A program made the position numbers and the translations under genes. A DNA stretch of 64,000 nt from a virus. The notes beneath the pieces are model-generated. The model searched no databases. It saw nothing but the letters and a program-made list of their open reading frames with translations, and was not told the origin of the DNA. Shown piece after piece: positions 7,967-21,766 of the stretch. The stretch's first letter is position 1. Every line of letters starts with the position of its first letter. Location: UHGV virus genome UHGV-1558314; one strand, 5' to 3'.

Positions 7967-8273
7967 TGTTTGTTGTTATTTGAGATGGTTTTGGGCAAGC
8001 TGCAAAGAATGGATTGCATTTGTAGTTGTTCAGTCGCAAATCATCATACTGTGACTTGTCAATGTATTGCACTGTGACTTTGTTAAACGCTAGTTTGACG
8101 CCAAATCGAGCAGCGCATTGGCCATATAACATATAACGATAATTGACGTTCTTACGAGATATGCTGCTGTCCTTATTAAAGGATATTTTTCGTGTGCTTA
8201 TGTATGCAAATGTAACATCGCCGTCAAGACATGTAAACTTGCGTGCATACACATATACTAGAACAGTTTTCAT
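7863..8273 (-). CDS. doubtful small ORF
   Basis: ORF 7863..8375 trimmed to internal Met; its 3' end overlaps the signal-peptide gene start by about 100 nt and it is Cys-rich. Confidence 0.2.
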   Translation of the reverse strand: MKTVLVYVYARKFTCLDGDVTFAYISTRKISFNKDSSISRKNVNYRYMLYGQCAARFGVKLAFNKVTVQYIDKSQYDDLRLNNYKCNPFFAACPKPSQITTNNENTKNVAACISGKCAYACKRRRTKSHDDALANT

Positions 8274-8277
8274 AGCA

Positions 8278-9543: not shown

Positions 9544-9545
9544 GC

Positions 9546-10178
9546 TTATAAGAATTTTTCTGCAATCAAGCCAGGTGTAAAATCAGGATGGAACTGCAGA
9601 GGCCCATTATCAATGACATTGATTTCGAGATGATTGCCATCGATGTCTATGACAGACGCTTTGTCAAAGCCTACAGGGCTATTGTAGATGTACGCATTGC
9701 CAGATTTGTCAATGACAATATCACCATGAACAAAGTATTCACGCTCAGTTACAGCAAAGCCTCCGCAAGTTGCAGTGTTGTCTGACTCTTGTTTGACATC
9801 GTAGTCAGCTTTCAATGCTTGTGCAAGCGTAATGACATCTTTGCTGTACTTTCTGCGGCCAATAGGCGTGTCAATCATATTGATGAGCGACGTAATTTTG
9901 TCTTGCGGCGACATGTTCATAGCAGCATATTGCAATGCTGACATACAATGTAGCAATTCGCATGTATCAGTTGTAATACGACAAATCTGACAAACGTCAC
10001 CAATTGCAATGTCATCAATGTTGTCGCATTTTATTGATGTCACCAATAACTTTACGTTGTCATGCATGCACGATACTACAATAGAACTGATGCTGTTATC
10101 ATAATAACGTTCAATTTTTGTCACGGTTGCAATGCGGTAATTGCTGCGCTCTATCATGCGATAATTTGTTTTATTCAT
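9546..10178 (-). CDS. hypothetical protein (start uncertain)
   Basis: ORF 9546..10277 trimmed to internal Met MNKTNYRMIERS to avoid overlap with the upstream small gene. Confidence 0.4.
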   Translation of the reverse strand: MNKTNYRMIERSNYRIATVTKIERYYDNSISSIVVSCMHDNVKLLVTSIKCDNIDDIAIGDVCQICRITTDTCELLHCMSALQYAAMNMSPQDKITSLINMIDTPIGRRKYSKDVITLAQALKADYDVKQESDNTATCGGFAVTEREYFVHGDIVIDKSGNAYIYNSPVGFDKASVIDIDGNHLEINVIDNGPLQFHPDFTPGLIAEKFL

Positions 10179-10392
10179 ATGTGTAAGTGTGAAGTTGTTC
10201 AAAAAGGTCTTCAATTGAGTTTGTTTCAAATGCAAACTCATCTTTTGATATGCAAGTGACCATATAAATGCCATCAATATTTACAATGCGGCAATCATGG
10301 CCATCTGGGCTGAACTTCTTGTCTTTGTACAGAATTTCAGCCATGATGAGTCGTTGGTTAAGCGTAAGTGGATTGCTATAGAATCGTTTCAT
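10171..10392 (-). CDS. hypothetical small protein (73 aa)
   Basis: ORF track; operon packing. Confidence 0.4.
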   Translation of the reverse strand: MKRFYSNPLTLNQRLIMAEILYKDKKFSPDGHDCRIVNIDGIYMVTCISKDEFAFETNSIEDLFEQLHTYTYE

Positions 10393-10396
10393 ATCA

Positions 10397-10618
10397 TTAA
10401 GCTTCTTTGAAATTCAAGCAATTATTGAACCAGAGTTCTTCTGCAATCGTAAGCTCCAGTTCAGAGCAGTTATTCTTAATGAAGTCAGTCGGGTCATAAT
10501 TGAAATACACATATTCACCTGAATAGTGAAAAGGCTGTTCCATAGCAATCAATGCGAACATTAAACTGTCGATGTCCCTTTTATTGCCATATGCTACGTA
10601 AACTTTAATCTGTTTCAT
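10397..10618 (-). CDS. hypothetical small protein (73 aa)
   Basis: ORF track; preceded by a conserved promoter motif and a 5' UTR (AACCTCTACAACA-ATG) shared with gene 43203..43514. Confidence 0.45.
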   Translation of the reverse strand: MKQIKVYVAYGNKRDIDSLMFALIAMEQPFHYSGEYVYFNYDPTDFIKNNCSELELTIAEELWFNNCLNFKEA

Positions 10619-10635
10619 TGTTGTAGAGGTTTTAT

Positions 10636-10664
10636 ATTATATATTGATATATTACAACATTTGT
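10636..10664 (-). promoter_or_regulatory. conserved phage promoter motif (ATGTTGTAATAT...TATAAT)
   Basis: Minus-sense AAATGTTGTAATATATCAATATATAATATAAAACCTCTACAACAATG; the -10 TATAAT lies about 20 nt before the ATG. Confidence 0.45.
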
Positions 10665-10710
10665 TGTCAATTTGCACAATTGTTGTTAACAAAATGCATT
10701 ACATTGACAA

Positions 10711-10744
10711 AAAAATAAAGGCTCAGTTTGTATAACTGAGCCTC
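10711..10744 (-). terminator. rho-independent terminator after thyA
   Basis: 10-bp stem AGGCTCAGTT/AACTGAGCCT with 5-nt loop, followed on the minus strand by TTTATTTTTTTG. Confidence 0.55.
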
Positions 10745-10763
10745 TTGAAATGACACGAACTTA

Positions 10764-11822
10764 TTACTGCTTCAAGCCTGTGAACAGTTCATACTTGAAT
10801 GCAGGCCCTGCTGTGTAAGCCTCAAAGTAGAAGTCACCAATATTGATGCTTGCAATAGCGTCATCGACAGCTTTCTTGTAGCCTACACGTTCAATTGTCT
10901 GCTTATCGCATTTACGCCAATATGTGCTGTGCATCATAAGCGTGGGTGATGCAGCATAGTCTACTGCAAGCTGTTGTTTTGCAGTGTCAATGTGATGTTC
11001 ATAGATGTGCACATCATTGCCAGTCCAAATGAACTCTCTTGCCGCACAGTTAGTCAATGTTGCAACAATATGTGTAAGCAATGCATATGATGCGATATTG
11101 ATGGGCACACCAAGACACATGTCACAACTACGCTGAGTAAGCGCACAGTCAAGCCACATGCTTGGTACTTGAGCAGAATCAAGGCATTCTGCAGAACAAT
11201 CATGCACAAGCATGCTATCATTAGCAATCTGAATTCGTTCTTCAAGAGTCATTGGCTGACAATTGAACTGAAACAGCATATGACATGGCGGCAATGCCAT
11301 CTGAGACATTTGTGCAGGATTCCATGCAGACACGACTTTGTAGCGGCCAGTTGGATTGATGACAATGTCTTTAATGCAAGTTGCAAGTTGGTCATATCCA
11401 CTGTCATTGAAGTTGCGCCACTGATACCCATAGATAGGTCCGCAATCACCATACTCAGGCTTGCTGAATTTTGTGTTATGCAGTTCTGTGCACCAAGTTT
11501 CAAAGTCGACATCTTCACCTGGATGCAGTTTACGCCAATGACGATATGCATCCTGATGCCAGAACTTTGTAATACCAAGCGTGTCAAGCGTTTTTACATT
11601 TGTATCACCTGACATAAACCACAGAAGTTCTCCAATGACACCCTTGACAAACATTCTCTTGGATGTCAACAGTGGAAAGCCTTTACGCAAATCAAATCGC
11701 ATTGATTCTACAAACAATGACTTTGTGCGAGGCATGTTTTCACGAGCAGGCTCCTTAAATCTGCCATGTTCAATAACATTGTTAAGTACTCTCAAGTACT
11801 CAGTGTCGTGTTTGATATTCAT
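10764..11822 (-). CDS. thyA: thymidylate synthase (ThyA family, with insertion)
   Basis: FPLLTSKR, VVSAWNPAQ, catalytic ALPPCHMLFQF, and LGVPINIASYALL with Asn at the base-specificity position (uracil-specific). Confidence 0.8.
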   Translation of the reverse strand: MNIKHDTEYLRVLNNVIEHGRFKEPARENMPRTKSLFVESMRFDLRKGFPLLTSKRMFVKGVIGELLWFMSGDTNVKTLDTLGITKFWHQDAYRHWRKLHPGEDVDFETWCTELHNTKFSKPEYGDCGPIYGYQWRNFNDSGYDQLATCIKDIVINPTGRYKVVSAWNPAQMSQMALPPCHMLFQFNCQPMTLEERIQIANDSMLVHDCSAECLDSAQVPSMWLDCALTQRSCDMCLGVPINIASYALLTHIVATLTNCAAREFIWTGNDVHIYEHHIDTAKQQLAVDYAASPTLMMHSTYWRKCDKQTIERVGYKKAVDDAIASINIGDFYFEAYTAGPAFKYELFTGLKQ

Positions 11823-12483
11823 GAATGGGATGTTTATGAGTGTCTAATGATATGTCTGAGAATTCATATGCATACTTTGATATTGCAACACCATTTGCAT
11901 CTTCAAATGCTTCTGTAAAGTTGCTATCAATCCATCGTTTGACAGACTTAACTCCGCCTAAATGACATGCTGCAAGCAATGACGCTTCGGTTATTGTAAA
12001 TGTGTTATCATTGTATGTCGCTTTACGCCCAATTGCGTCATAACAACCGTAGTGCTGCAGCAATTCTTGTTGACGTTCAAGTAGCATATGCTGCACCGCA
12101 ATCTGCTTTGTAGAATCTTTAGCAATTTCTTGCAGTGAACAAGTCAATCCTTTGTATCGTACCAAGTCATCATGAGCAATCTTTGTTAGCTGCCATCGAC
12201 CTGTTGCGCCAAATCGATTTGTGATATGCCAACGATTGCGAGATTCAAGATAGCCCAGCTTATCTAAGTATTCTGCAAAGCTGCAAGTTTCTGGTTCAGT
12301 GACGTCTAACAAGACGTGCACATTTGACAAATTTGCGACTGGCGCATATGTGACATGTTTTGTTGCAGTGCAATCACATAATGTCGGCCATGCAATGATA
12401 AAAGCAACACCAATTTTGATGAGCGATTCACATAATCTTATCATTTGTTTGAAATTAGTGAAGAGCACTTGCAGGCAGCTCAA
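11800..12483 (-). CDS. hypothetical protein (227 aa; start uncertain)
   Basis: ORF track; overlaps thyA start by 23 nt; no confident motif. Confidence 0.4.
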   Translation of the reverse strand: MSCLQVLFTNFKQMIRLCESLIKIGVAFIIAWPTLCDCTATKHVTYAPVANLSNVHVLLDVTEPETCSFAEYLDKLGYLESRNRWHITNRFGATGRWQLTKIAHDDLVRYKGLTCSLQEIAKDSTKQIAVQHMLLERQQELLQHYGCYDAIGRKATYNDNTFTITEASLLAACHLGGVKSVKRWIDSNFTEAFEDANGVAISKYAYEFSDISLDTHKHPIHEYQTRH

Positions 12484-12509
12484 TCTCCTGACAGTACACT
12501 GTCATGCAA

Positions 12510-14387
12510 TCAAAAGCCTGCAAAGAAATCAGCATCAGCAGCATCTTGCTGCGATGTTGACTCTTGTTCAATCACAAATCGACTGTGCAACTTTTGATTA
12601 TGTTTTATGTATGGCATAATGCGCCGGATTGATTCATCAATGACAAACGTTTCACACCAGTCATTTGCATGTCGAATGCCTCGACCAACTGACTGTACGA
12701 AGCTTTGATAGCACTTATTGCGATACCAGCTTTCGTGATTTGCAGCTTTTGTTTTGACTACGATATCACCAAGTGATTGCCAAGGTAATTTTGCAACAAT
12801 TTGACATCTACAACGATTGTCTGGTAAGTCAACGCCTTCAGTAATGCTAAAGCCTACAAGTACGTAGTTAGTGCCATCAGCAAGCATTGCAAGTTTGTTT
12901 TGTTTATCTTCAGCATTGACATATGTCAGCATTCTGCGTTTGTGCTTGCTGTTATTGATGATATAGTTTGCAATGTCTCGTGTTGATGTGTGTATGATAC
13001 AGTTGCAGTCATGCGTGTCAAGAATGCTGTCAATCTTCTCAACAAGTCGAGGCATATTTGCCGCTTTATTCTTGTAGCTCAATGACAACGCAGGCCTGCA
13101 CAGTACAATGGGGGATTTGCTAAAATCCCAATCAGGCTCCATGTAGAATGCTACATAGTTTTTGATGCCATTGAGTGCAGCAAATGTGTCGATGTCACCA
13201 ATTGTCGCTGACATCCACAATTGTGCGTGTGTAGCATCACTGTGATGCACCAGCGTATTTGCAAGAAGCTCATCATTGACACATTTGAATTGCAAGCTGT
13301 TTGTTGCAGCGTCAAGTACTACAAGCATGTCACCAGGTGATTGTTCAGTTGCATCAAGCATTGTAATGATTGAATATGACAACGTATCACAGCTGGCAAC
13401 AAAGCGAATGAACGCTTTCTCAAATTGACCAAGTATTTTACCAGAATCCTGAAGTTCACTTAGCTTGTCATATGCAGTATGCAAAAAGTCTACAAGTTCT
13501 GACAACTGCTGTGCAAGCACTCTTGCTTCTGCTCGCATTGTTGCAATGTCATATTGTGTTGTTGCAAGCTTAATGATTGCTTTGACTTGTGCAAACACAT
13601 TATTGCGAAGTTCTACATATTTATTCTGATTTTCAAGAGTCATGATACCTGCAATCAGTGACTCGGCCTTTGTGCAATTCTGAATGAATCGAGGACCAAT
13701 TGACGTGTAAAGAAAGCCTGACAAAATGTCATCAATCTTATGGCACTCATCGAATATTGTCAATTCACGAGGCCCAAATAAGTTTTTGACGCAATTGACT
13801 TGTATCAACCAGTATGCATAATTGAGCACAGTGCAATTTGCTGCTGCAGCCTTTTGACGAGTCTGCAAATATGCGCATTTAGGTCCGCATGGCAATGCAA
13901 GAGCTTTCTTTGATGACAGCCCGTCTTGCTGGCATTTGCCCATACTGAATGGCAGCCCATTGACATGACAAATGTAGTTGTCTCGACCTTTGAGCATTAC
14001 ACAACTTCTGAATGCTGAAGTAGTTGTATCTGCTTTAGCATTGTTGTCGTACAAATATTGCTGAATGAACTTGTCGTACTGGTCTTGCAGCAGTTTATCA
14101 GAAGTCAGTACATACGACTTAAAGAACGTTGCACAAAACATTGCAACCACAGATTTCCCCGTTCCAGTCGCGCCCTGCAACACAACATTTTGCCCATTTG
14201 CAATGCAACGAATGATGTCAATAATTAGTTGACGTTGAGTTGCGTCAAAACGTGCTTGGTCCCATTTGCATGTCTTTGATTGTGCAAGATATGCTGAGAA
14301 TTTGTCGATATGTGCTACAATGAGCTCATCAAGCTCTTGCTGAGACTGTTCTTCTGTCTTATGTTCTGTTGGTGTTAGTCTACCCAT
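12510..14387 (-). CDS. XPD/DinG-like (Rad3 family) SF2 DNA helicase with Fe-S Cys cluster
   Basis: Walker A VLQGATGTGKSVV, DECH box IFDECHKIDD, motif VI VQSVGRGIRHANDW, and four Cys between motifs I and II (ICH, KCQ, PCGPKC). Confidence 0.7.
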   Translation of the reverse strand: MGRLTPTEHKTEEQSQQELDELIVAHIDKFSAYLAQSKTCKWDQARFDATQRQLIIDIIRCIANGQNVVLQGATGTGKSVVAMFCATFFKSYVLTSDKLLQDQYDKFIQQYLYDNNAKADTTTSAFRSCVMLKGRDNYICHVNGLPFSMGKCQQDGLSSKKALALPCGPKCAYLQTRQKAAAANCTVLNYAYWLIQVNCVKNLFGPRELTIFDECHKIDDILSGFLYTSIGPRFIQNCTKAESLIAGIMTLENQNKYVELRNNVFAQVKAIIKLATTQYDIATMRAEARVLAQQLSELVDFLHTAYDKLSELQDSGKILGQFEKAFIRFVASCDTLSYSIITMLDATEQSPGDMLVVLDAATNSLQFKCVNDELLANTLVHHSDATHAQLWMSATIGDIDTFAALNGIKNYVAFYMEPDWDFSKSPIVLCRPALSLSYKNKAANMPRLVEKIDSILDTHDCNCIIHTSTRDIANYIINNSKHKRRMLTYVNAEDKQNKLAMLADGTNYVLVGFSITEGVDLPDNRCRCQIVAKLPWQSLGDIVVKTKAANHESWYRNKCYQSFVQSVGRGIRHANDWCETFVIDESIRRIMPYIKHNQKLHSRFVIEQESTSQQDAADADFFAGF

Positions 14388-14404
14388 TCTAAATGAGATT
14401 TAGA
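14388..14404 (-). promoter_or_regulatory. palindromic leader element TCTAAATGAGATTTAGA abutting the helicase start codon
   Basis: Perfect 7-bp inverted repeat with 3-nt spacer at positions -1 to -17 from the ATG; identical element at 21342-21358. Confidence 0.5.
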
Positions 14405-14626
14405 TTATGTTCGAATATATGAGAACATATATTATTTGTAAAGATATAATACTACAAACAGCACACATTTGCACTTTGACATAACTGATTGAGTATCAAT
14501 CAATTATGAGTTTATAAAAGTTTTTCAAAAGTAGGGTGTTGTTGTTTGAGTAGAGTGTTGTTAATGCTGTCAGCTGTCTTGTTAGCATTATCGATTGCTT
14601 GCAAACTATCAGCCGTCATAGAACAT

Positions 14627-14666
14627 CACAAAAGCAAGCAGACTACAATTGCAGTCTGCTTGCTTT
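14627..14666 (-). terminator. rho-independent terminator (13-bp stem) followed by TTTTGTG
   Basis: AAGCAAGCAGACT / AGTCTGCTTGCTT stem; near-identical palindrome at 30977-31004. Confidence 0.55.
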
Positions 14667-14687
14667 GACATATGTGTAGCATATAGC

Positions 14688-15044
14688 TTATTTGCACATA
14701 AACAATGCAGCAAACCAATTCACTGGCTTGTCAATAAGCTGCTTCCACATAGTCCAATTGTACATGCCATGTGCAAACATTGTAAGAGCAAACAGCAGCA
14801 TACACATTGATACAAGCCAATCAGCAAATGGCATATTGCCCCATCGAATGTACTCGAAAATGCCAACTTTAACAAGCTGAGCAAACAAAATGAGCATTAC
14901 AGCCATTGCAAGTCGCGTCCAGACTACATATTGCTGAGTCTTATCTACAAACTTTGCAATCAATGCTGGCACAAAGTACATAATGTATGCAAACAGCAGC
15001 AAGCAAAAGCCTGCATACAGCAGATTAGAAATAAAAGCTCCCAT
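14688..15044 (-). CDS. integral membrane protein (3-4 TM)
   Basis: ORF track; strongly hydrophobic segments (FCLLLFAYIMYFVPALIA, AMAVMLILFAQLV, LVSMCMLLFALTMF). Confidence 0.45.
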   Translation of the reverse strand: MGAFISNLLYAGFCLLLFAYIMYFVPALIAKFVDKTQQYVVWTRLAMAVMLILFAQLVKVGIFEYIRWGNMPFADWLVSMCMLLFALTMFAHGMYNWTMWKQLIDKPVNWFAALFMCK

Positions 15045-15047
15045 ATT

Positions 15048-15929
15048 CTATCGTTTGAATTTGATGAAGTGTTCAGCATCGAGGCCCTCAAATACATACG
15101 GGTCAAGAGTTTCCCAGAAGTTTGAGTATGTCGTTGTCTTTGCAATGCTTGTTTGCTTTGACAAGTTCATATTTGGGTAGCCAAGCATTGCATAGTGTCG
15201 CTCATATATGTGCATTGACGTCGCATTATGCACATATGCGCCAAGCTTAAGACCAAGTTCATTTGCGACAAGTTCTTGCAACAAAGTGAATGCAAACTGG
15301 TCGTTGCAAAAGCCCCAAATGACATCATTGCTTCGCATGTATGTTGTCAAGTACAGCTTATCACCACGAACATTGAAAACAAGATTCAATGTGCATGGCA
15401 TGTCTTTGCCAGTGTAGTTTGCATATTGCGGCTCATAAATGCTAATAACTGCTCGTCTTGTGCATTCATGATTTCGCAAACGTTCAATGACATCTGCAAT
15501 CTGCTTGTGCCAAATTGCGCCATACTGTGAATTGACATTGACACCATCGTCGCTGAATTGCTTCCAACGAGGCAAATAACGTTCAATGCATTCAACTGCA
15601 GGATTGGCTGTCATGTACCACGCAAATTCTGCAGCAGCATTGAGCTTTTTCCATGGTCGTACGTCAATCTTGATTTGCCGCTGTGAAGGGTCCTGAATAA
15701 CTACAGACACATTCAGCAATTCTTTTGTTCGAGTCACTGTTTGTGCATTGTTGCCCTTTGATTCTACAAACTCACCTCTACAATGAAGTTCATACAAAAT
15801 TGAGCGAAATGCTTCTGTTGCAGTGTTTTCAATGATTGTCGTCTGTTGATAACATAAATTTGACGACAATGCTTCAGCATCATTGTACTTTATGCTGTCA
15901 TTGTCATAAGGTGAATTTTTTGTGTGCAT
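15048..15929 (-). CDS. deoxycytidylate 5-hydroxymethylase (T4 gp42-like, ThyA fold)
   Basis: Catalytic Cys in DMPCTLNLVF; YMRSNDVIWGFCNDQFAF closely resembles gp42 NMRSNDVVFGFRNDYAW, with Asp at the position equivalent to ThyA Asn177 / gp42 Asp179. Confidence 0.7.
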   Translation of the reverse strand: MHTKNSPYDNDSIKYNDAEALSSNLCYQQTTIIENTATEAFRSILYELHCRGEFVESKGNNAQTVTRTKELLNVSVVIQDPSQRQIKIDVRPWKKLNAAAEFAWYMTANPAVECIERYLPRWKQFSDDGVNVNSQYGAIWHKQIADVIERLRNHECTRRAVISIYEPQYANYTGKDMPCTLNLVFNVRGDKLYLTTYMRSNDVIWGFCNDQFAFTLLQELVANELGLKLGAYVHNATSMHIYERHYAMLGYPNMNLSKQTSIAKTTTYSNFWETLDPYVFEGLDAEHFIKFKR

Positions 15930-15953
15930 ATTTTGGGATGTTTGTTTTTGTTA

Positions 15954-17048
15954 TCATACAACGACGGTATCTCGTTTGCAATCTGTTCTGTCGAATATCG
16001 AGCAACAATATGATGCAGATTGCTCTTTGATTGCAATAGCTTCGTCATTGTCAAGTGATGAAATACCATCTATGTATGCTTTTGTATTGCCAGCGATGTC
16101 ATCATTTGTTAGCAATGCTGCACGACGTTCAGTACCAAAGAAGCCAAAGCACAATTGACGCTGCAATGCTTCACGAGAAATCTTGTCATCAAACTCGGAT
16201 TTCATGTGTTGCATAAATTCGACAATATCATCAATGTCGCATTGAGTAAAGTCAATGTACAATTTATGCATGTACTTGAATCGTTTGTAGTCTGTTGCAA
16301 GAATTTCTGGGTGCACAATGAACAACGTCTTTTTGCTGTCTATTGGATTTGCAATGACTGACGCTTGAACATAATCAACAAGCACGCCAGATTCACGAAG
16401 TTGCTCAACTGTTTTGCCAAATATATGCCCAAACGTGTCATCAAACCACTTCAAGTATACTTCGTTGTCTTCATCTTTTGATGCGCCAACAATGTAAATC
16501 TCATTGACTCCAAGCGCTTTAAGACGAGTGTCAGATAGCATCGTGTTCAATTGATGCTGCACATACAGCATTGGGCTGCTATGCAAAACTGTTTTGACAA
16601 TCTCACAAGCAATGTCCATATATGCATAGTCAAGCTTTGCAGATTTTGACACATACACTGCACGTTGCTGCAATGGCTCAATTGCTGAGCATGTGGTCAC
16701 AAAGTTGCCAACACATTCTGCTACTGCAATGTCATGCAAGTCATCTGCAATGTACACAATACTTGACAAGTCATCAAATGTTTGAACAAGTTGCTGAAGC
16801 TTTGTTTTGTAATTGCAGAGCATCAATGACTTGATGTTGCAATTGCCAAGCATTGTCTTGATGAGTCGTTGACCTGCTTCAGTGCTGTCACCAGAAATGA
16901 CATGCACATCGCAGTCAAACCAGTTCAACATGTCGATTGCATGCCGAACGCCATATTGCATTTGTTTTGCGAACTTGCCAGATTCATTGAACAGCATTTC
17001 ACCTGACATAATGCCGTCAAAGTCACATACGATTTGAAGTCTGTCCAT
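15954..17048 (-). CDS. HAD-superfamily phosphatase domain protein with uncharacterised C-terminal domain
   Basis: N-terminal IVCDFDGIM matches the HAD motif I (D-x-D-G). Confidence 0.5.
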   Translation of the reverse strand: MDRLQIVCDFDGIMSGEMLFNESGKFAKQMQYGVRHAIDMLNWFDCDVHVISGDSTEAGQRLIKTMLGNCNIKSLMLCNYKTKLQQLVQTFDDLSSIVYIADDLHDIAVAECVGNFVTTCSAIEPLQQRAVYVSKSAKLDYAYMDIACEIVKTVLHSSPMLYVQHQLNTMLSDTRLKALGVNEIYIVGASKDEDNEVYLKWFDDTFGHIFGKTVEQLRESGVLVDYVQASVIANPIDSKKTLFIVHPEILATDYKRFKYMHKLYIDFTQCDIDDIVEFMQHMKSEFDDKISREALQRQLCFGFFGTERRAALLTNDDIAGNTKAYIDGISSLDNDEAIAIKEQSASYCCSIFDRTDCKRDTVVV

Positions 17049-17052
17049 GTTG

Positions 17053-17358
17053 CTACAATTTTGAAGTTAAGTCAATTCGAATTTTGTCTGCGTTGCTTTG
17101 GTCAACAAATCTGTCATCAAAGAAACATTCAACTACGACAAGCTTCTTTGAATTCACAAATTCGATTAGCGATTTTTGCATTGCATCAAGTTGCTTCATG
17201 CATTTACAAAAGCTGCTGTATGACATGATTTGCTTTGGTAACATATCAAATGCGTCTGCAATTCGCTGATGAGCAATCTTTTTTGATGTTGCAATAATGA
17301 CATCTGCTTTGTTGTCATTTGCATGATTGCCAAATATCGCAATATGGTAAACTTTCAT
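17053..17358 (-). CDS. hypothetical small protein
   Basis: ORF 17053..17385 trimmed to internal Met MKVYHIAIFG. Confidence 0.35.
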   Translation of the reverse strand: MKVYHIAIFGNHANDNKADVIIATSKKIAHQRIADAFDMLPKQIMSYSSFCKCMKQLDAMQKSLIEFVNSKKLVVVECFFDDRFVDQSNADKIRIDLTSKL

Positions 17359-17412
17359 TGTATGAGTGATTTTGCTGTTATACATTTATGTTATATATGC
17401 ACATTGTGCCAG

Positions 17413-20400
17413 TTAACAAATTGATGACGTGCCATCAGTATTTGCTACAACTGTCAATGCACTATCAAACTCATCTTGTTGCAATACATGGTCAACTATG
17501 AGTGTTTTGCGAATTGCAGAAAGCTTGGTAAGCAACTGCATCAACACTTGCTGATAATTGATATTGTTGACATCATGCTCAGCGCCAACAATCTGCCCAT
17601 TGCTAAGCTTGCCACTGATTTCGTCAATGAGCAAGATGTTGCCCACTTTGTTTAAGCGTTGAGTCAAAATGAGATGCACGATTGCAAGACCTGCGAAAGT
17701 TCCTTCCATGCCAGACATTTGACTTACACTTCGAATTGACTTCGAGCCCATCAAGTCAATCATCTTCAACACATTGTTGTCATTGATGTCAAAGAACACT
17801 CGGTAGTTCAATGAATCCAGCAAATCATTGAGCTGTGCATTCAGTGATGTTGCAATTGCTGCAAAGACATATGAAACTAAGCCTCGTTTGCTTGTGCACT
17901 GCTTATATGCATTGTACACCAAGTTTGCAATGTTCCACTTTTTCGAAGCTTGCAAATCTTTCTTGAGAGCTTCAATTCGCACATTGTTTGCTGATAAGTC
18001 TGCTTGCATTGTTGCAATTTCTGCATTGATGCTTAGCAGTTTTGAGTTCGCTTCAGTTTCATGCTGCTTAGCATCATCAATGTCGACTTGCAATGCAGCA
18101 TTTGTTGTAATATGCTGCTGAGTTTGCTGTGCATGTTCAAGTGCAAATGCTGCAGCAGTCTTATCAATCTCAAGTTGTTTAAGCGCAGACTCATATGTCG
18201 CTTTCTTATCATACTCTGCTTGAGCAATTTCAAGTTCAGCATTTATTGCAGCCAGTTCTGATTCTACTGTAGATTTTGATTGCAATACATCTTGCTTTGC
18301 TTGTTCAGCTTTACGTTTGATGTCTGCAAGTTGATTTGTGATATCTGCAATTTGCATTTTGACTGCTTCGACTTCAAGCAATGTTGCTGCAGTAGCCATT
18401 GGTTGTGCAATGAATGCATCTAAGTCTCTTTGCGCATTGACTACAGTTCTCTGCAAATCATTGAGCTTTTCTGCATGCATGTCATATGCTGCTTTGTGTG
18501 CTGGATTCAGTGCAGCAATTATTGCATTTGAATCTGTAACATCTATGATTGCTGCTTGCAGTTGCTCAATTTCATACTTCAAATTGCCAATTTTGACAAC
18601 ATTCTCATTGAATTGCTCTGTCTTTTGCGCACATTCTTGACGCAACTTAGCAAGCTCAGTTGACAACCACAGCTTGTATGCTTGTCCTGTGCCAGATGTC
18701 AAGTCATTTGTACATACAGGGCATTTGTCGTTTTCAAGTTGCTTTTGCTTGTCTATAACATTGTCGATGTTTGTTTTTGCAGCAGATATTTCTGTTCTAA
18801 GTGCATTTTGAACAGTGTTGATGTCTTCAATTTGCTTTTGCAAAGCATCTATTTTTGCCCGAGTGTTTGCATTGTACGACTTGCCAAGATTTATCAGCAC
18901 AGAATCAATGTGCTGCTTTGCTGCATCATATGCAAGCTTTGATTCATCAAGCTTTGTTCTGTACAATGACTCTGCATGCGCAACTTCTTTCTGCACTTTT
19001 GCAGATAGCTCATTCTGTTTTGTAAGCAGCTCAGCATATGTATTGTGCAGCTGTGAGCCAGATGCTATGACATTTGTGTATGCTGTATTAGCTTCATTGT
19101 CAATATTAGTGAGTTGCTGCTCAATCTGTGCTTTTGCTGTTTGCAACTTAGACATATCTTGCAATGCAAGTGCAGCAATGTCAAGCTCAACTTTGTGAAT
19201 CTTTGCAATGATGCCATCGATATTTGCTGTTGCATCTTCTATAGTTAAGATGTCTGCAGGAATTTGATGTAGTTTCTTTGAGAGCTCTTCTACTTTTGCA
19301 CGAGCTTTTGTAAGCTTCGCGGACCACTCTTTTTGATTATCTTGTCGTAACTGCAAAGAGTAATTGAGTTCATTGCAAGTTGTATTGAGAGACTCAAGTT
19401 CTGCTTTTATTGCAACATCAGTCAATGCGGGCTTACTAAGGCCATCAAACAATGCAGCCTTTGCAGCATCATTAGAATTGCCAAGCTGTACAAATGTATT
19501 GATGCCAAGAGTATCAAGTAGCCAGTCATTCAATGAATTTGAGTCCATTGCAATGATTTGGTCAAGTAGTGTCTGATTGATACAAACATATCGCGACAAT
19601 TCCCAGATAGAGCCAAAGATTGCATATAGCGTGTCTTTGATTTCATGCTGCGGCACTACGTAGTCATCTGACAATCTTACAAGCTGAACAGTCTCATTGA
19701 CTGCTGACACGTTATCTCGCCATGAGCCATCTGCATTTATTCGAGAACCTCGTTTGAATTTGCGTTCAAGTGTTCGAATCAATTTGTAGTGAACATTTTG
19801 ACCTGCTACTACATGCACAAAGACACAAGAAGCTTCAAGCTTATCATATGACTCATTGTCAATCAATTTGTCATTGAAGTATGTCAAAGCGTTCTGCTTT
19901 GTTGCTGCAGAAGACTGTTCAGCGTCAATAAAGCCAGTCAGCAGCCATTTGATAAGTCTGAAGATTGTAGTCTTGCCATTGCCATTGTTGCCTCTAACTT
20001 GTGTAAGCTGTGCAAGATTGTCAAAGCTGACATCAACATCTTTCAATGCCATGAACTGATTTGCTTTAACATTTTGAATGACATATTTTGCAACTTCAGT
20101 GTCAAAAGACAATTTATCAATTTGTTCATCAATCAATGACTTGAACATGTCAACAAACTGCTGAGCATCTTCAGTAGCAACTATGGCATTGCGTTCAATG
20201 TATGCATTGACCCAGTCAAGTGCAGCGTCTTTAAGCCATTCAGCAGTTTGAACCTTTTGCAGCAAATTGTCGCCATTTGCGTCTACAGCATTGATTGAAT
20301 CAATGACAGCAGAATCATACAGAATGTCAATTGCAGCAACAACATATGAACTTACAAGATTCTGTGCAATGCGCTCAACAATACCAGACAGTTCGGGCTT

Positions 20401-21339
20401 TGTGACCTTTGACTTGATTTTGATTTTATTGATGCGGCCAGGGTTGATGAGTGCAATCTTGTCTGTTTTGACATCATTATCAATTGTGATTGTATGATAA
20501 TGCACAAGCTGCTCAAGTGGATGCCACTCTACCACAATTCGCTTGTTGTCAATATCGATGTCAAGCAAGTTGTAGCCATGTTCTGCAGTACCATGCTGTA
20601 TTGCAGTGTCATTCAACAAATAGTCGCCTTCACCAAAATCTCTGACAATTGGCGAGCCGCAATATGTTAATGTCTTATCACCAGCAACCCATATTGCATG
20701 CTTATGAATGTCACCCATTGCAACAAAGTTGCTATTAAATTGCATTGCATCTATACGACTGTCATTGTCACCACGAACAATACAATCATCAAAGTTGACA
20801 CAATTCTTTACAGGGTCATGGAACAGCTCAATGACACACATTGATGACAATGCTGCAATCTGCGATTCATCAAGTGATGCCCAAGGCGAATATGTGCCAC
20901 CAGACCACTTCTCATTTTGAGCCCATACTGCAGCAGCAAAACCAGGTGCAAGCAGTTCAACTCTTGAACTGTTGATATACTTGATTCGCTTGTCATCAAT
21001 TGCAGTTACAAGCTTGTCAATGCTATCTGTCCACTGCATTTGTGAACCATCACCAGCATCAAATGTGTTATCACGTTGCTTCAAATCATGATTGCCAGCA
21101 GTAATGACAATTTGAAGCTTGTCATTGACTTCAAGCATGCCTTTGAGCAGCTTAACAAACAGCGACTCTTCAAGTGAATTGCTATTCCAATGCTCAAACA
21201 CGTCGCCGACAATGAATACAAACTCAACTGACTTTGCTTTGTCAATTAGTTGTTTGTTGATGTGCTCATATTCTACGAAACGTCGTAAATGACCTTGTCG
21301 AACATTATATTGAATGTCTGCTATGTGAAGTGCTTTCAT
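17413..21339 (-). CDS. fused Mre11/SbcD nuclease - Rad50/SbcC ATPase (1308 aa)
   Basis: N-terminal phosphoesterase motifs VFIVGDVFEHW, VITAGNHDL, GDIHKH; Walker A GNNGNGKTTIFRLIKWLL; coiled-coil with zinc hook DKCPVCTNDL; signature SGMEGTFAGLAIV; Walker B LLIDEISGKLS. One uninterrupted ORF. Confidence 0.75.
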   Translation of the reverse strand: MKALHIADIQYNVRQGHLRRFVEYEHINKQLIDKAKSVEFVFIVGDVFEHWNSNSLEESLFVKLLKGMLEVNDKLQIVITAGNHDLKQRDNTFDAGDGSQMQWTDSIDKLVTAIDDKRIKYINSSRVELLAPGFAAAVWAQNEKWSGGTYSPWASLDESQIAALSSMCVIELFHDPVKNCVNFDDCIVRGDNDSRIDAMQFNSNFVAMGDIHKHAIWVAGDKTLTYCGSPIVRDFGEGDYLLNDTAIQHGTAEHGYNLLDIDIDNKRIVVEWHPLEQLVHYHTITIDNDVKTDKIALINPGRINKIKIKSKVTKPELSGIVERIAQNLVSSYVVAAIDILYDSAVIDSINAVDANGDNLLQKVQTAEWLKDAALDWVNAYIERNAIVATEDAQQFVDMFKSLIDEQIDKLSFDTEVAKYVIQNVKANQFMALKDVDVSFDNLAQLTQVRGNNGNGKTTIFRLIKWLLTGFIDAEQSSAATKQNALTYFNDKLIDNESYDKLEASCVFVHVVAGQNVHYKLIRTLERKFKRGSRINADGSWRDNVSAVNETVQLVRLSDDYVVPQHEIKDTLYAIFGSIWELSRYVCINQTLLDQIIAMDSNSLNDWLLDTLGINTFVQLGNSNDAAKAALFDGLSKPALTDVAIKAELESLNTTCNELNYSLQLRQDNQKEWSAKLTKARAKVEELSKKLHQIPADILTIEDATANIDGIIAKIHKVELDIAALALQDMSKLQTAKAQIEQQLTNIDNEANTAYTNVIASGSQLHNTYAELLTKQNELSAKVQKEVAHAESLYRTKLDESKLAYDAAKQHIDSVLINLGKSYNANTRAKIDALQKQIEDINTVQNALRTEISAAKTNIDNVIDKQKQLENDKCPVCTNDLTSGTGQAYKLWLSTELAKLRQECAQKTEQFNENVVKIGNLKYEIEQLQAAIIDVTDSNAIIAALNPAHKAAYDMHAEKLNDLQRTVVNAQRDLDAFIAQPMATAATLLEVEAVKMQIADITNQLADIKRKAEQAKQDVLQSKSTVESELAAINAELEIAQAEYDKKATYESALKQLEIDKTAAAFALEHAQQTQQHITTNAALQVDIDDAKQHETEANSKLLSINAEIATMQADLSANNVRIEALKKDLQASKKWNIANLVYNAYKQCTSKRGLVSYVFAAIATSLNAQLNDLLDSLNYRVFFDINDNNVLKMIDLMGSKSIRSVSQMSGMEGTFAGLAIVHLILTQRLNKVGNILLIDEISGKLSNGQIVGAEHDVNNINYQQVLMQLLTKLSAIRKTLIVDHVLQQDEFDSALTVVANTDGTSSIC

Positions 21340-21341
21340 AT

Positions 21342-21358
21342 TCTAAATGAGATTTAGA
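21342..21358 (-). promoter_or_regulatory. palindromic leader element TCTAAATGAGATTTAGA just upstream of the Mre11-Rad50 start codon
   Basis: Same 17-bp palindrome as at 14388-14404, at -3 to -19 from the ATG. Confidence 0.5.
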
Positions 21359-21386
21359 TTATATGTTGATATTGTACAACATGCAA
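21358..21386 (-). promoter_or_regulatory. sigma-70-like promoter TTGCAT-N17-TATAAT with conserved TTGTACAA core
   Basis: Minus-sense TTGCATGTTGTACAATATCAACATATAAT, about 18 nt upstream of the ATG at 21339. Confidence 0.55.
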
Positions 21387-21418
21387 AATGCACTTGCATT
21401 TTGATACAACGTATGTCA

Positions 21419-21766
21419 TTATTTTGCAAGCATTTTGCTGATTGCATCTATCACAGTTTCACTGAGCAAGTAGTAGACAACGCTTATCAGCAATGATATC
21501 AGTACTGCAGCTGTGATAAATTGCAACGCATTCACAATTGCACGCACAAATGTTATCTGTGTGTTGTATGCAAGCACTATGCAGCATAGCACAATAATGA
21601 CACACCAGACTACAATTGCATATGCAGGCATCAATGAATTTGTCCATATGCAGTACAATACAGTAGTTAGCATCAAAAATGCTATTGCTCTGATGACTGA
21701 CACAATGATGTCTATGTAGAGCTTCATTACACGTAAATGAACTCTTGGCTTATGCGGTTTCATCAT
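21419..21766 (-). CDS. small membrane protein
   Basis: ORF 21419..21829 trimmed to internal Met; hydrophobic segments IIVSVIRAIAFLMLTTVLYCIW, AIVVWCVIIVLCCIVLAY, AAVLISLLISVVYYLL. Confidence 0.4.
   Translation of the reverse strand: MMKPHKPRVHLRVMKLYIDIIVSVIRAIAFLMLTTVLYCIWTNSLMPAYAIVVWCVIIVLCCIVLAYNTQITFVRAIVNALQFITAAVLISLLISVVYYLLSETVIDAISKMLAK

What the first reader, a model, noticed from the sequence alone, without database searches (positions are those of the whole stretch)
15048..15929. gp42-like hydroxymethylase with Asp at the specificity position predicts 5-hydroxymethylcytosine DNA
Besides a canonical ThyA (10764..11822, Asn at the specificity position) the phage encodes a second ThyA-fold enzyme whose active-site region YMRSNDVIWGFCNDQFAF carries Asp where ThyA has Asn177. 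That is the signature of dCMP hydroxymethylase. With the dCMP deaminase and Tmk-like kinase nearby, this predicts hmdCMP synthesis and a modified-cytosine genome.
Basis: partly seen in the sequence, partly recalled or inferred. Interest (0 to 1): 0.6.

Follow-up and report, generated by a model that had tools for sequence, protein, structure and literature searches.

The report
Phage dCMP hydroxymethylase with DNA sugar-transferases
A roughly 175-kb uncultured phage encodes, besides a normal thymidylate synthase, a second enzyme of the same fold whose active site matches known cytosine hydroxymethylases, with relatives of the T4 DNA glucosyltransferase nearby, so its DNA very probably carries sugar-decorated 5-hydroxymethylcytosine: a known strategy in a new phage lineage.

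Summary
ORF 15048..15929 (-) encodes a 293-aa thymidylate-synthase-fold protein (Pfam PF00303, E=3.7e-24) carrying YMRSNDVIWGFCNDQFAF, with Asp at the E. coli ThyA Asn177 position. The published residue code separates the cases. The target has Asp177 (cytosine), Asp at the Leu143 position (not a methylase), Asp169 retained (not a 5-hydroxylase), Thr147, and Ser167/Arg126 (deoxyribose). That is the T4 gp42 pattern, and all 120 homologues share it. It is not a gp42 orthologue: overall it is closer to MilA and to dUMP hydroxymethylases. Context supports hmC in DNA. There are two remote homologues of T4 beta-glucosyltransferase, each paired with a weak GT47-like protein, plus a Tmk-like kinase, a dCMP deaminase and a canonical ThyA. 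A 95%-identical strain also has a MazG-like candidate dCTPase and a dUTPase outside the window. A KdsC-like HAD phosphatase is a conserved neighbour of unknown role. Verdict: new member of a known kind, possibly with a novel glycan. Nothing is shown biochemically.

The parts
15048..15929 (-). Predicted dCMP 5-hydroxymethylase (thymidylate-synthase fold, 293 aa). Active-site residues (E. coli ThyA equivalent in brackets): Cys179 (Cys146), Asp176 (Leu143), Thr180 (His147), Met198 (Gln165), Arg199/Ser200 (Arg166/Ser167), Asp202 (Asp169), Asp210 (Asn177), His240/Tyr242 (His207/Tyr209).
15954..17048 (-). 364-aa protein immediately upstream. The N-terminal ~150 aa form a KdsC-like HAD phosphatase with catalytic DxD (D9, D11), K83 and DD102/103 intact. 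The C-terminal ~210 aa have no recognisable family. It is a conserved neighbour of the TS-like gene; its role is unknown (sugar-phosphate or nucleotide phosphatase).
   Evidence: NCBIfam TIGR01670 E=1.9e-9, below cut-off. Adjacency conserved in L008 and L009. Homologue near the TS-like gene in phage MA9V-2. Rare family.
22983..24158 (-). Beta-GT-like protein 1 (391 aa), a remote homologue of T4 hmC-DNA beta-glucosyltransferase. The motif CTDMRFPF aligns with T4 FTDIRLPF (Asp100), and NRVGE aligns with T4 LRVWE (Arg269/Glu272).
   Evidence: PHROG 7922 E=1.4e-7. BLASTP to T4 b-gt E=5e-7. hhalign probability 95.2%, E=2.8e-8. Control against T4 alpha-GT gave probability 0.5%. No Pfam hit. AF2 model poor.
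27579..28745 (-). Beta-GT-like protein 2 (388 aa), a paralogue of 22983..24158 that keeps the TTDLRFDF and LLPNRWVE motifs.
   Evidence: BLASTP 24% identity, E=1e-12. hhalign probability 97.7%. Direct comparison with T4 b-gt is weak.
21763..23001 (-). GT47/exostosin-like putative glycosyltransferase 1 (412 aa), overlapping the end of beta-GT-like 1. Candidate transferase for a second sugar.
   Evidence: Pfam PF03016 E=1.5e-4 and PF13524 E=1.8e-4, both below gathering score. Conserved next to the beta-GT-like gene in L008 and L009.
26026..27582 (-). GT47/exostosin-like putative glycosyltransferase 2 (518 aa, with a Cys-rich C-terminal tail), overlapping the end of beta-GT-like 2. Paralogue of 21763..23001.
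   Evidence: Pfam PF03016 E=9.7e-6, below gathering score. Paralogy at 30% identity, E=7e-46. Alignment A5.
25408..25980 (-). Tmk-like P-loop nucleotide kinase (190 aa, Walker A GVEASGKT). Inferred hmdCMP kinase.
   Evidence: The kinase family assignment is weak in Pfam, but the protein is 35% identical to the annotated Tmk of phage MA9V-2.
28717..29442 (-). dCMP deaminase (241 aa). Supplies dUMP for ThyA and lowers the dCMP pool.
   Evidence: PF00383 E=5.5e-21.
10764..11822 (-). Canonical thymidylate synthase ThyA (352 aa, with two insertions) carrying Leu143, His147, Asp169 and Asn177.

Best explanation
The gene encodes a folate-dependent deoxycytidylate 5-hydroxymethylase, functionally equivalent to T4 gp42 but from a different branch of the thymidylate synthase superfamily. 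Inferred pathway: dCMP is hydroxymethylated to 5-hmdCMP. The dCMP may be replenished from dCTP by a MazG-like pyrophosphatase encoded outside the window. The Tmk-like kinase and host NDP kinase raise 5-hmdCMP to 5-hmdCTP, and the phage family-B polymerase incorporates it. The hydroxymethyl groups in DNA are then glycosylated by two beta-glucosyltransferase-like enzymes. The two paired GT47-like transferases possibly extend the sugar. In parallel, dCMP deaminase and the canonical ThyA make dTMP, as in T4. What is shown: the fold, the active-site residues, the paralogy and the conserved synteny. What is inferred: substrate, product, sugar identity, extent of cytosine replacement, and the role of the HAD phosphatase.
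For: 1. TS fold and a complete catalytic set: Cys146, Glu58, Tyr94, Arg126/127, Arg166, Ser167, Asp169, His207 and Tyr209 equivalents.
2. The published residue code (PMC13326640) reads as follows. Asn177->Asp means dCMP. Leu143->Asp/Glu means a non-methyl product. Asp169->Asn means 5-hydroxy-dCMP synthase. The target reads Asp / Asp / Asp(169 retained), identical to T4 gp42 and MilA. RB69 gp48 reads Glu/Asn/Asp, ThyAs read Leu/Asp/Asn, and dUMP hydroxymethylases read Asp/Asp/Asn.
3. Positions 147 and 165 co-vary with the base. They are Thr/Met in cytosine enzymes, Asn/Asn in dUMP hydroxymethylases and His/Gln in ThyA; the target has Thr/Met. Positions 177 and 147 were the top two positions associated with modified-cytosine metavirome DNA (PMC8670742).
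4. Ser and Arg sit at the MilA Ala176/Lys133 positions, which indicates deoxyribose rather than ribose specificity.
5. All 120 retrieved homologues keep the Asp/Asp/Asp pattern.
6. The best solved relatives by sequence and by fold are hydroxymethylases: MilA at E=1.5e-22 by sequence, and Foldseek E=1.7e-19 with TM 0.70.
7. There are two homologues of T4 beta-glucosyltransferase, an enzyme whose known acceptor is hmC in DNA. Each is paired with a GT47-like gene. This module stays linked to the TS-like gene in relatives at 73% and 51% identity.
8. The kinase, dCMP deaminase and ThyA are present in the window. A dUTPase and a MazG-like NTP pyrophosphatase lie next to the DNA polymerase genes in a 95%-identical strain.
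9. A phage that keeps its own ThyA is unlikely to replace thymine.
Against: There is no biochemical or DNA-composition data for this phage or for any member of its clade. By overall similarity, the nearest characterised enzymes are dUMP hydroxymethylases (115 and 102 bits) and the ribonucleotide enzyme MilA (101 bits), not T4 gp42 (62 bits). The call therefore rests on a handful of active-site positions. The Leu143 rule is described in its source as a correlation. The Asp169Asn rule was derived mainly from Straboviridae plus nine tested outliers. No sequence of a natural dCMP methylase (XP12 type) was available here to test the code. The beta-GT link is remote: about 22% identity, no Pfam hit, and an AF2 model too poor to use. 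The GT47-like assignments are below Pfam thresholds. The MazG-like protein has unknown specificity, is unrelated by BLASTP to T4 gp56, and was seen in a related strain rather than in the exact source contig. GATC is totally avoided genome-wide, which suggests GATC sites remain vulnerable. However, the RB69 stretch examined, from a phage whose cytosines are fully hypermodified, also under-represents GATC (9 observed against 66 expected).
Confidence: 0.72

Rival explanations
1. It is a flavin- and O2-dependent 5-hydroxy-dCMP synthase (RB69 gp48 / HY126 AfhB type). The glycosyltransferases would then attach sugars by an ether bond to 5-hydroxycytosine.
For: This class also has Asp177 and an acidic residue at the Leu143 position. 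It also sits in clusters with a Tmk-like kinase, several glycosyltransferases and a HAD phosphatase, an arrangement that resembles this window. AfhB structures 9iqc and 9iqu are good fold matches (E about 5e-16).
Against: The diagnostic Asp169->Asn change is absent. The target has Asp202, invariant in 79 aligned homologues. The target also keeps Trp80, Gly173 and Tyr209, which RB69 gp48 has changed to Val, Val and Phe. It scores no better against RB69 gp48 (63.5 bits) than against T4 gp42, and much worse than against hydroxymethylases.
Confidence: 0.07
2. It is a dCMP methyltransferase (Xanthomonas phage XP12 type) making 5-methyl-dCMP, so the genome would carry 5-methylcytosine.
For: Asn177->Asp alone converts ThyA into a dCMP methylase (Liu & Santi 1992 and Hardy & Nalivaika 1992, as cited in PMC8670742). 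No natural dCMP methylase sequence was compared here.
Against: The position equivalent to Leu143 is Asp, as in every hydroxymethylase examined, not a bulky hydrophobic residue (rule from PMC13326640). The closest characterised relatives are all hydroxymethylases. The beta-GT-like enzymes would lack a hydroxyl acceptor. No TET-like oxygenase was found among the scanned ORFs.
Confidence: 0.06
3. It is a dUMP hydroxymethylase (SPO1 / ViI / M6 type), and the phage replaces thymine with 5-hydroxymethyluracil derivatives.
For: Apart from uncharacterised phage homologues, the highest overall similarity is to annotated dUMP hydroxymethylases of ViI-like phages and of phage SP8 (115 and 102 bits).
Against: All three base-reading positions differ from that class: Asp177 versus Asn, Thr147 versus Asn, Met198 versus Asn. 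The phage keeps a canonical ThyA and a dCMP deaminase, which would make dTMP. No 5-hmU DNA kinase was seen among the scanned ORFs.
Confidence: 0.05
4. It is a CMP (ribonucleotide) hydroxymethylase like MilA or BcmA, feeding a small-molecule or RNA-related pathway rather than DNA.
For: MilA is the best solved match by both sequence and fold.
Against: The two residues that give MilA its ribose preference (Ala176, Lys133) are Ser and Arg here, as in T4 gp42 and ThyA. The MilA A176S/K133R double mutant switches to dCMP (PMC5175136). The gene sits among phage replication and nucleotide-metabolism genes.
Confidence: 0.03

Closest known systems
T4 gp42 deoxycytidylate 5-hydroxymethyltransferase (EC 2.1.2.8; PDB 1B5E/1B49/6A9B)
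   Same: Same fold and identical pattern at every diagnostic active-site position tested: Cys, Asp at the Leu143 position, Thr147, Met165, Arg166, Ser167, Asn168, Asp169, Gly173, Asp177, His207, Tyr209. Same pathway partners in the genome: ThyA, dCMP deaminase, nucleotide kinase and a beta-GT homologue.
   Different: Only about 27% identity over 186 aa (62 bits). It falls outside the T4/RB69 branch in the NJ tree. It is 47 aa longer, with N- and C-terminal extensions. The partner kinase is Tmk-like rather than gp1-like. The candidate dCTPase is a short MazG-like protein with no BLASTP similarity to gp56.
MilA CMP 5-hydroxymethylase of Streptomyces rimofaciens (PDB 5JNH/5B6D)
   Same: Best solved relative by sequence (E=1.5e-22) and by fold (TM 0.70). 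Shares Asp at both the Leu143 and Asn177 positions and retains Asp169.
   Different: MilA has Ala176/Lys133 (ribose preference) where the target has Ser/Arg (deoxyribose type). MilA serves antibiotic biosynthesis in a bacterium rather than phage DNA synthesis.
RB69 gp48 / DLP3 gp80 / HY126 AfhB 5-hydroxy-dCMP synthases and their arabinosylation clusters (PMC13326640)
   Same: A ThyA homologue with Asp177 and an acidic Leu143 position. Similar cluster logic: ThyA homologue, Tmk-like kinase, several glycosyltransferases and a HAD phosphatase.
   Different: The target keeps Asp169 where those enzymes have Asn, and also keeps Trp80, Gly173 and Tyr209. No arabinose-5-phosphate isomerase or nucleotidyltransferase-kinase homologue was found in the window. 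The glycosyltransferases here are beta-GT-like and GT47-like rather than GT4-like.
Uncharacterised Asp177 ThyA homologues of Bacteroidota phages (Chryseobacterium phage MA9V-2 gp146; Bacteroides phage BF486P2 gp32, annotated deoxycytidylate 5-hydroxymethyltransferase)
   Same: Closest named relatives (44% and 37% identity) with the same residue code. MA9V-2 shares a four-gene neighbourhood: KdsC-like HAD, Tmk-like kinase, TS-like gene and DinG-like helicase.
   Different: Their function is annotation only. MA9V-2 gp146 carries a long C-terminal extension (447 aa). No homologue of the beta-GT-like or GT47-like proteins was found in the 16.6-kb stretches of those two genomes that were examined (L005, L006).

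Membership tests
Thymidylate synthase superfamily (Pfam PF00303) | Profile match above the curated threshold, and a TS fold | tested here: met
   PF00303 scored 85.8 bits against a cut-off of 24.3. AF2 model pLDDT 90.1; Foldseek returned 396 PDB hits at E<=0.001, with TS-family entries filling the top 50 listed.
Thymidylate synthase superfamily (Pfam PF00303) | Catalytic Cys146 nucleophile and phosphate/pyrimidine-binding residues (Arg126/127, Arg166, Ser167, Tyr94, Glu58, His207, Tyr209) | tested here: met
   All are present in the target and invariant or nearly so in the family alignment.
Canonical ThyA (dUMP methylase, EC 2.1.1.45) | Asn177, His147 and Leu143, and a score above the NCBIfam equivalog cut-offs | tested here: not met
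   The target has Asp, Thr and Asp at these positions. Its best NCBIfam ThyA score is 79 bits against a cut-off of 174.6, and it is below the cut-off for all eight models.
dCMP 5-hydroxymethylase (T4 gp42 functional class) | Asp at the Asn177 position (cytosine N3/N4 recognition) | tested here: met
   Asp210 is invariant in 79 homologues.
dCMP 5-hydroxymethylase (T4 gp42 functional class) | Acidic residue at the Leu143 position (water access; hydroxymethyl rather than methyl product) | tested here: met
   Asp176, three residues before the catalytic Cys, as in T4 Asp145 and in MilA. The rule comes from PMC13326640.
dCMP 5-hydroxymethylase (T4 gp42 functional class) | Asp169 retained (not the Asn that marks 5-hydroxy-dCMP synthases) | tested here: met
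   Asp202 is invariant. The rule comes from PMC13326640.
dCMP 5-hydroxymethylase (T4 gp42 functional class) | 2'-deoxyribose specificity residues (Ser167 and Arg126 equivalents) | tested here: met
   Ser200 and Arg157. The rule comes from the MilA mutagenesis study PMC5175136.
dCMP 5-hydroxymethylase (T4 gp42 functional class) | Orthology with T4 gp42 (same clade) | tested here: not met
   62 bits to gp42 against 101-115 bits to MilA and dUMP hydroxymethylases. In the NJ tree, T4 and RB69 fall outside the target's clade. This lowers the claim 'gp42 orthologue' but not the claim 'works like gp42'.
dCMP 5-hydroxymethylase (T4 gp42 functional class) | Conversion of dCMP and methylene-THF to 5-hmdCMP | not testable with these tools
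   Needs an enzyme assay or the E. coli co-expression LC-MS assay.
5-hydroxy-dCMP synthase (RB69 gp48 / AfhB) | Asn at the Asp169 position | tested here: not met
   The target has Asp. RB69 gp48, fetched as a control, has Asn.
dUMP hydroxymethylase (SPO1 gp29 / ViI / M6 type) | Asn at position 177, with Asn147 and Asn165 | tested here: not met
   The target has Asp, Thr and Met. All three reference enzymes have Asn, Asn and Asn.
T4 beta-glucosyltransferase family (for ORFs 22983..24158 and 27579..28745) | Detectable homology to T4 beta-GT | tested here: met
   PHROG 7922 E=1.4e-7. BLASTP E=5e-7. hhalign probability 95.2%, against 0.5% for the alpha-GT control. The paralogue links at probability 97.7%. 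No Pfam family was detected, even at E<=1.
T4 beta-glucosyltransferase family (for ORFs 22983..24158 and 27579..28745) | Catalytic base Asp100 and UDP-binding Arg269/Glu272 (residue roles recalled from the T4 BGT structural literature, not checked in a paper here) | tested here: met
   Asp122, Arg290 and Glu293 align to these positions and are invariant in six family members. The equivalent motifs are present in the 388-aa paralogue.
T4 beta-glucosyltransferase family (for ORFs 22983..24158 and 27579..28745) | GT-B fold; transfer of glucose from UDP-glucose to hmC in DNA | tested here: inconclusive
   The AF2 model has pLDDT 55.6 and is unusable. Activity and sugar identity are not testable here.

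The most novel reading that the evidence does not exclude
The phage makes a not-yet-described glycan on 5-hydroxymethylcytosine. The duplicated two-gene module (beta-GT-like plus GT47-like, present twice) would build di- or oligosaccharides, or two alternative glycans, on hmC. The conserved KdsC-like HAD phosphatase, fused to an unknown domain, would supply an unusual activated sugar. This would be a Bacteroidota-phage counterpart of the arabinosyl-5hoC and gentiobiosyl-hmC systems.
Probability: 0.3. Interest if true: 0.55.

Novelty: new member of a known kind. Interest (0 to 1): 0.35.

Why it matters
If confirmed, it extends pre-replicative cytosine hydroxymethylation plus glycosylation from T-even coliphages to a distinct ~175-kb phage lineage. 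The host is probably in Bacteroidota; that rests on a BACON-domain protein and on the nearest relatives being Chryseobacterium, Bacteroides and Maribacter phages. It also provides a test of the three-residue product code for ThyA homologues (positions 143, 169, 177) on a clade far from the phages it was derived from. Practically, such DNA resists many restriction enzymes and some CRISPR nucleases, and it can be under-represented or mis-called in metagenomic sequencing. The four transferase genes could be a source of new DNA-glycosylating enzymes. As an enzyme-class prediction it is not surprising to a specialist.

Tried and rejected
- Megablast of 4 kb around the gene against 50,697 phage records found no match, so no named close relative exists there.
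- The NCBIfam ThyA equivalogs all scored below their cut-offs.
- The AlphaFold2 model of the 391-aa beta-GT-like protein, built from only 6 sequences, had pLDDT 55.6 and was not fold-searched.
- By eye I suspected that the 460-aa ORF 29447..30829 was a third beta-GT-like protein. I rejected this: hhalign probability 0.2%, and BLASTP to T4 b-gt E=3.5.
- The GT47-like family profile gave nothing against PDB sequences or against T4 alpha-GT.
- A PADLOC scan of nine neighbouring proteins gave nothing.
- tblastn of T4 gp56, alpha-GT, beta-GT and the RB69 arabinosylation proteins (gp45-55) against the window found no hit at E<0.01.
- For the HAD-like protein, an exhaustive profile search found only 37 representatives, with conservation limited to the HAD domain. 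Pfam on 34 of them named nothing for the C-terminal domain.
- The MazG-like candidate dCTPase showed no BLASTP similarity to T4 gp56 and only weak PDB hits.
- Literature searches for hmC in Bacteroidota phages, and for the MA9V phages, gave no data on DNA modification.
- A literature search for the catalytic residues of T4 beta-GT found nothing in the held library, so those residue roles are cited from memory.
- No tRNA genes are present in the window.
- I could not obtain a natural dCMP methylase (XP12) sequence to test the Leu143 rule directly.
Full report
**1. The observation**

It contains the quoted peptide YMRSNDVIWGFCNDQFAF.

- It matches Pfam Thymidylat_synt (PF00303) at E=3.7e-24, 85.8 bits against a gathering score of 24.3.
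- It matches phage TS-like PHROGs at up to E=6e-49.
- It stays far below the curated cut-offs of all eight NCBIfam thymidylate synthase equivalog models. It is therefore a divergent member of the superfamily, not a ThyA.
- An AlphaFold2 model built on 79 homologues is confident (pLDDT 90.1, pTM 0.88) and has the TS fold.
- A second, canonical ThyA is at 10764..11822 (E=4.3e-76).

**2. Active-site reading**

I aligned the target with:
- the window's own ThyA;
- T4 gp42 (fetched);
- RB69 gp48;
- a MilA fragment (taken from the alignment);
- three dUMP hydroxymethylase lineages: Bacillus phage SP8, a ViI-like Salmonella phage, and the M6-like Pseudomonas phage MP1412;
- two Bacteroides phage proteins and one Chryseobacterium phage protein;
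- 120 metagenomic homologues.

The Asn177 column is Asp in the target, T4 gp42, RB69 gp48, MilA and all 120 homologues. It is Asn in both ThyAs and in all three dUMP hydroxymethylases.

**3. Why Asp177 alone is no longer enough, and what else was tested**

A 2026 paper (PMC13326640) shows that the ThyA homologues of RB69, DLP3, RL38J1 and others also carry Asp177. Those enzymes are flavin-associated 5-hydroxy-dCMP synthases, not hydroxymethylases. The same paper gives a residue code:
- Asn177->Asp marks cytosine specificity.
- Leu143->Asp/Glu correlates with non-methyl products.
- Asp169->Asn marks the 5-hydroxylases. Nine diverse Asn169 enzymes were validated.

Because the alignment has an indel before the catalytic Cys, I read the Leu143 position as the residue three before the Cys. 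The results:

| Enzyme | Leu143 position | Position 169 | Position 177 |
|---|---|---|---|
| Target | Asp | Asp | Asp |
| T4 gp42 | Asp | Asp | Asp |
| MilA | Asp | Asp | Asp |
| RB69 gp48 | Glu | Asn | Asp |
| dUMP hydroxymethylases | Asp | Asp | Asn |
| ThyAs | Leu | Asp | Asn |

Further points from the alignments:
- The target keeps Trp80, Gly173 and Tyr209, which RB69 gp48 has replaced.
- Positions 147 and 165 co-vary with the base. They are Thr/Met in cytosine enzymes, Asn/Asn in dUMP hydroxymethylases and His/Gln in ThyA; the target is Thr/Met.
- Independently, a metavirome association study found positions 177 and 147 to be the two positions most associated with modified-cytosine DNA (PMC8670742).
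- MilA prefers CMP because of Ala176 and Lys133, and the A176S/K133R double mutant switches to dCMP (PMC5175136). The target has Ser and Arg at these positions.
- All 120 homologues share the Asp/Asp/Asp pattern. Asp176, Cys179, Thr180, Asp202 and Asp210 are invariant in the 79-sequence alignment.

**4. Family placement**

The enzyme is not a gp42 orthologue.

- BLASTP scores are 160 bits to Chryseobacterium phage MA9V-2 gp146 and 136 bits to Bacteroides phage BF486P2 gp32. They are 115 and 102 bits to dUMP hydroxymethylases and 101 bits to MilA. They are only 63.5 bits to RB69 gp48 and 61.6 bits to T4 gp42.
- In an NJ tree, the target's clade sits beside the dUMP hydroxymethylase and MilA groups, with T4 and RB69 outside.
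- MilA is the best solved match by sequence (E=1.5e-22) and by fold (E=1.7e-19, TM 0.70). HY126 AfhB (about 5e-16) and T4 dCH (6e-15) rank lower.

The enzyme thus belongs to a hydroxymethylase-rich part of the superfamily. Its substrate call rests on the base-reading residues.

**5. Genomic context inside the window**

Nearly all genes are on the minus strand. The target is flanked as follows.

- Upstream is a 364-aa protein whose N-terminal ~150 residues are a KdsC-like HAD phosphatase. The catalytic DxD, Lys and DD motifs are intact. Its C-terminal domain matches nothing.
- Downstream are a 118-aa membrane protein, a DinG-like helicase and the ThyA.
- Further upstream, at 21.7-29.4 kb, is a compact block:
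  - beta-GT-like 2 (27579..28745) overlapping GT47-like 2 (26026..27582);
  - a Tmk-like kinase (25408..25980);
  - a 244-aa membrane protein;
  - beta-GT-like 1 (22983..24158) overlapping GT47-like 1 (21763..23001).
  - The dCMP deaminase (28717..29442) sits at the head of the block.
- The two beta-GT-like proteins are paralogues (E=1e-12), and so are the two GT47-like proteins (E=7e-46). The two-gene module has therefore been duplicated.

Evidence that the 391-aa protein family is related to T4 beta-glucosyltransferase:
- It hits the beta-glucosyltransferase PHROG at E=1.4e-7.
- It aligns with T4 b-gt by BLASTP at E=5e-7.
- It aligns by profile at probability 95.2%, E=2.8e-8, over 218 columns.
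- T4 Asp100, Arg269 and Glu272 fall on invariant family residues. Their catalytic and UDP-binding roles are recalled from the T4 BGT literature, not checked in a paper here.
- The control against T4 alpha-GT is negative, at probability 0.5%.
- On the other side, Pfam sees no family and the AF2 model is unusable. The link is real but remote.

The GT47-like calls are below Pfam thresholds and should be treated as putative.

**6. Conservation of the context**

- Two metagenomic relatives have TS-like proteins 73% and 51% identical to the target. Both keep the order beta-GT-like, GT47-like, SbcCD fusion, small ORF, HAD-like, TS-like and helicase, and the 73% relative (L008) also keeps ThyA at the end.
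- Chryseobacterium phage MA9V-2 shares four genes within about 8 kb: KdsC-like HAD, Tmk-like kinase, TS-like gene and helicase.
- Two IMG/VR relatives at about 42% identity keep a dCMP deaminase within 4 kb.

**7. Beyond the window**

The window is part of a ~175-kb genome. ENA contig k119_42272 (175,395 bp) is about 100% identical. IMG/VR UViG_3300045988_152288 (174,628 bp) is about 95% identical.

In the 95% strain, about 12 kb past the window start, the order is:
- a family-B DNA polymerase exonuclease-domain gene;
- a 116-aa ORF;
- a dUTPase (PF00692 E=7e-11);
- a 124-aa MazG-like NTP pyrophosphatase (PF03819 E=8e-9);
- a 275-aa ORF;
- the polymerase-domain gene.

The MazG-like protein is a plausible dCTPase. 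It is in the same broad fold class as T4 gp56 according to PMC13326640 Table 1. Its specificity is unknown, and it has no BLASTP similarity to gp56. About 90 kb of the genome could not be inspected.

**8. Mechanism proposed**

- Shown: the fold, the catalytic residues, the residue code, paralogy and synteny.
- Inferred:
  - dCTP is hydrolysed to dCMP (MazG-like protein, uncertain).
  - dCMP is converted to 5-hmdCMP (target).
  - 5-hmdCMP is phosphorylated to the diphosphate (Tmk-like kinase) and the triphosphate (host NDK).
  - 5-hmdCTP is incorporated by the phage polymerase.
  - hmC in DNA is glycosylated by the beta-GT-like enzymes.
  - The sugar is possibly extended by the GT47-like enzymes.
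  - dCMP deaminase and ThyA provide dTMP.
- The HAD phosphatase may serve sugar-donor synthesis, by analogy with AfhF / RB69 gp51, or it may act on nucleotides. This is unresolved.

**9. Rivals**

- 5-hydroxy-dCMP synthase: fails the Asn169 test.
- dCMP methylase: fails the Leu143 test, but no natural methylase sequence was available for comparison.
- dUMP hydroxymethylase: fails at positions 177, 147 and 165, and is at odds with a resident ThyA.
- MilA-like CMP enzyme: fails the ribose determinants.

Together I give these about 0.2. About 0.07 remains for something unforeseen or an inactive pathway.

**10. A caveat noticed on the way**

- GATC is completely absent from the 64-kb window, against about 165 expected. 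It is essentially absent from the flanks and from the 95% strain.
- The 73% relative has normal GATC content. The avoidance is therefore recent and lineage-specific.
- This argues that GATC sites are, or were, vulnerable despite any cytosine modification.
- It does not contradict modification. The RB69 stretch examined, from a phage whose cytosines are fully hypermodified, shows 9 GATC against 66 expected, and the Bacteroides phage BF486P2 stretch shows 1 against 35.

**11. Novelty and score**

Predicting hmC from an Asp177 ThyA homologue is established practice, and the pathway logic is that of T4. What is new is the lineage. It is an uncultured ~175-kb phage with almost no Pfam-recognisable genes. 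A BACON-domain protein and the nearest relatives suggest a Bacteroidota host. Also new are the duplicated beta-GT-like/GT47-like module and the conserved HAD partner, which could mean an undescribed glycan on hmC. I rate it a new member of a known kind, interest 0.35. The more novel reading (a new glycosyl-hmC hypermodification) gets probability about 0.3.

Noticed in passing
window 1..64000; also L010, L011, L012, L013, L016: The tetranucleotide GATC is completely absent from the window, against about 165 expected from a Markov model. It occurs 0-1 times per ~20 kb in the flanking loci and in the 95%-identical strain. CTAG (3 observed, 72 expected) and CATG (349 observed, 640 expected) are also depleted, and TTTAAA is absent (8.6 expected). 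The 73%-related contig L008 has normal GATC content (31 observed, 39 expected), so the avoidance is lineage-specific. No Dam-like methyltransferase was seen among the scanned ORFs.
   Followed up: partly
L016 10001..15092 (IMG/VR strain, ~12 kb beyond the window start); L010 18709..20894: The family-B DNA polymerase is split into a 501-aa exonuclease-domain gene and a 430-aa polymerase-domain gene. Four ORFs separate them, including a dUTPase and a MazG-like pyrophosphatase. In the ENA strain, a 399-aa DUF7487 gene directly follows the exonuclease gene instead. This suggests a strain-variable, possibly mobile DUF7487 element. Another DUF7487 copy lies in the window at 37417..38553.
   Followed up: partly
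window 17413..21339 (-): A single 1308-aa protein combines an N-terminal Mre11/SbcD-like phosphoesterase region with a Rad50/SbcC-like ATPase (Walker A at residue 450). Precomputed Pfam for its L008 homologue lists Metallophos, AAA_23 and SMC_N. It appears to be a fusion of what T4 encodes as separate gp47 and gp46. It is conserved in L008 and L009 between the glycosyltransferase module and the HAD/TS-like pair.
   Followed up: no
window 10764..11822 (-): The canonical ThyA carries two insertions relative to E. coli ThyA: about 20 aa after the Trp80 region and about 35 aa after the strand that follows the catalytic Cys. It has Tyr in place of Arg127.
   Followed up: no
window 26026..27582 (-) C-terminus; 24155..24889 (-): The 518-aa GT47-like paralogue ends in a Cys-rich tail of about 70 aa (CDNCDN...CVICE...CSYCKFCKSDMSC...CCNGD) that its paralogue and homologues lack. 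A 244-aa predicted membrane protein with a Cys/His-containing C-terminus lies between the two glycosyltransferase modules and is conserved in L008 (63% identity).
   Followed up: no
window 46823..47437 (-), 39287..39901 (-), 33622..33939 (-), 36132..37265 (-), 62552..63448 (-): Other recognisable genes in a window otherwise almost devoid of Pfam matches are: a BACON-domain protein (a hint of a Bacteroidota host), a papain-family cysteine protease domain, a thioredoxin, a gp32-like ssDNA-binding protein, and a sigma-70-like factor (the last from precomputed Pfam in L012).
   Followed up: no
L006 (Chryseobacterium phage MA9V-2, OR513085.1 109222..125860): A cultured 218-kb Chryseobacterium phage carries an Asp177/Asp143/Asp169 ThyA homologue (447 aa, annotated as thymidylate synthase). 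Next to it are a Tmk-like kinase, a KdsC-like HAD protein and a DinG-like helicase, homologous to the window's genes. It would be an accessible experimental model for testing cytosine modification in this clade. The papers on it that I found concern isolation, genomics and biocontrol; I read only their titles and abstract openings.
   Followed up: partly
L005 (Bacteroides phage BF486P2, OP172667.1): This 53-kb Bacteroides phage encodes two different Asp177 ThyA homologues 2 kb apart. gp27 has Leu instead of the catalytic-water Glu58 and Leu instead of Gly173; gp32 has the full hydroxymethylase pattern. A dUTPase lies between them. Both are annotated dCMP hydroxymethyltransferase. The role of the divergent copy is unclear.
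   Followed up: no
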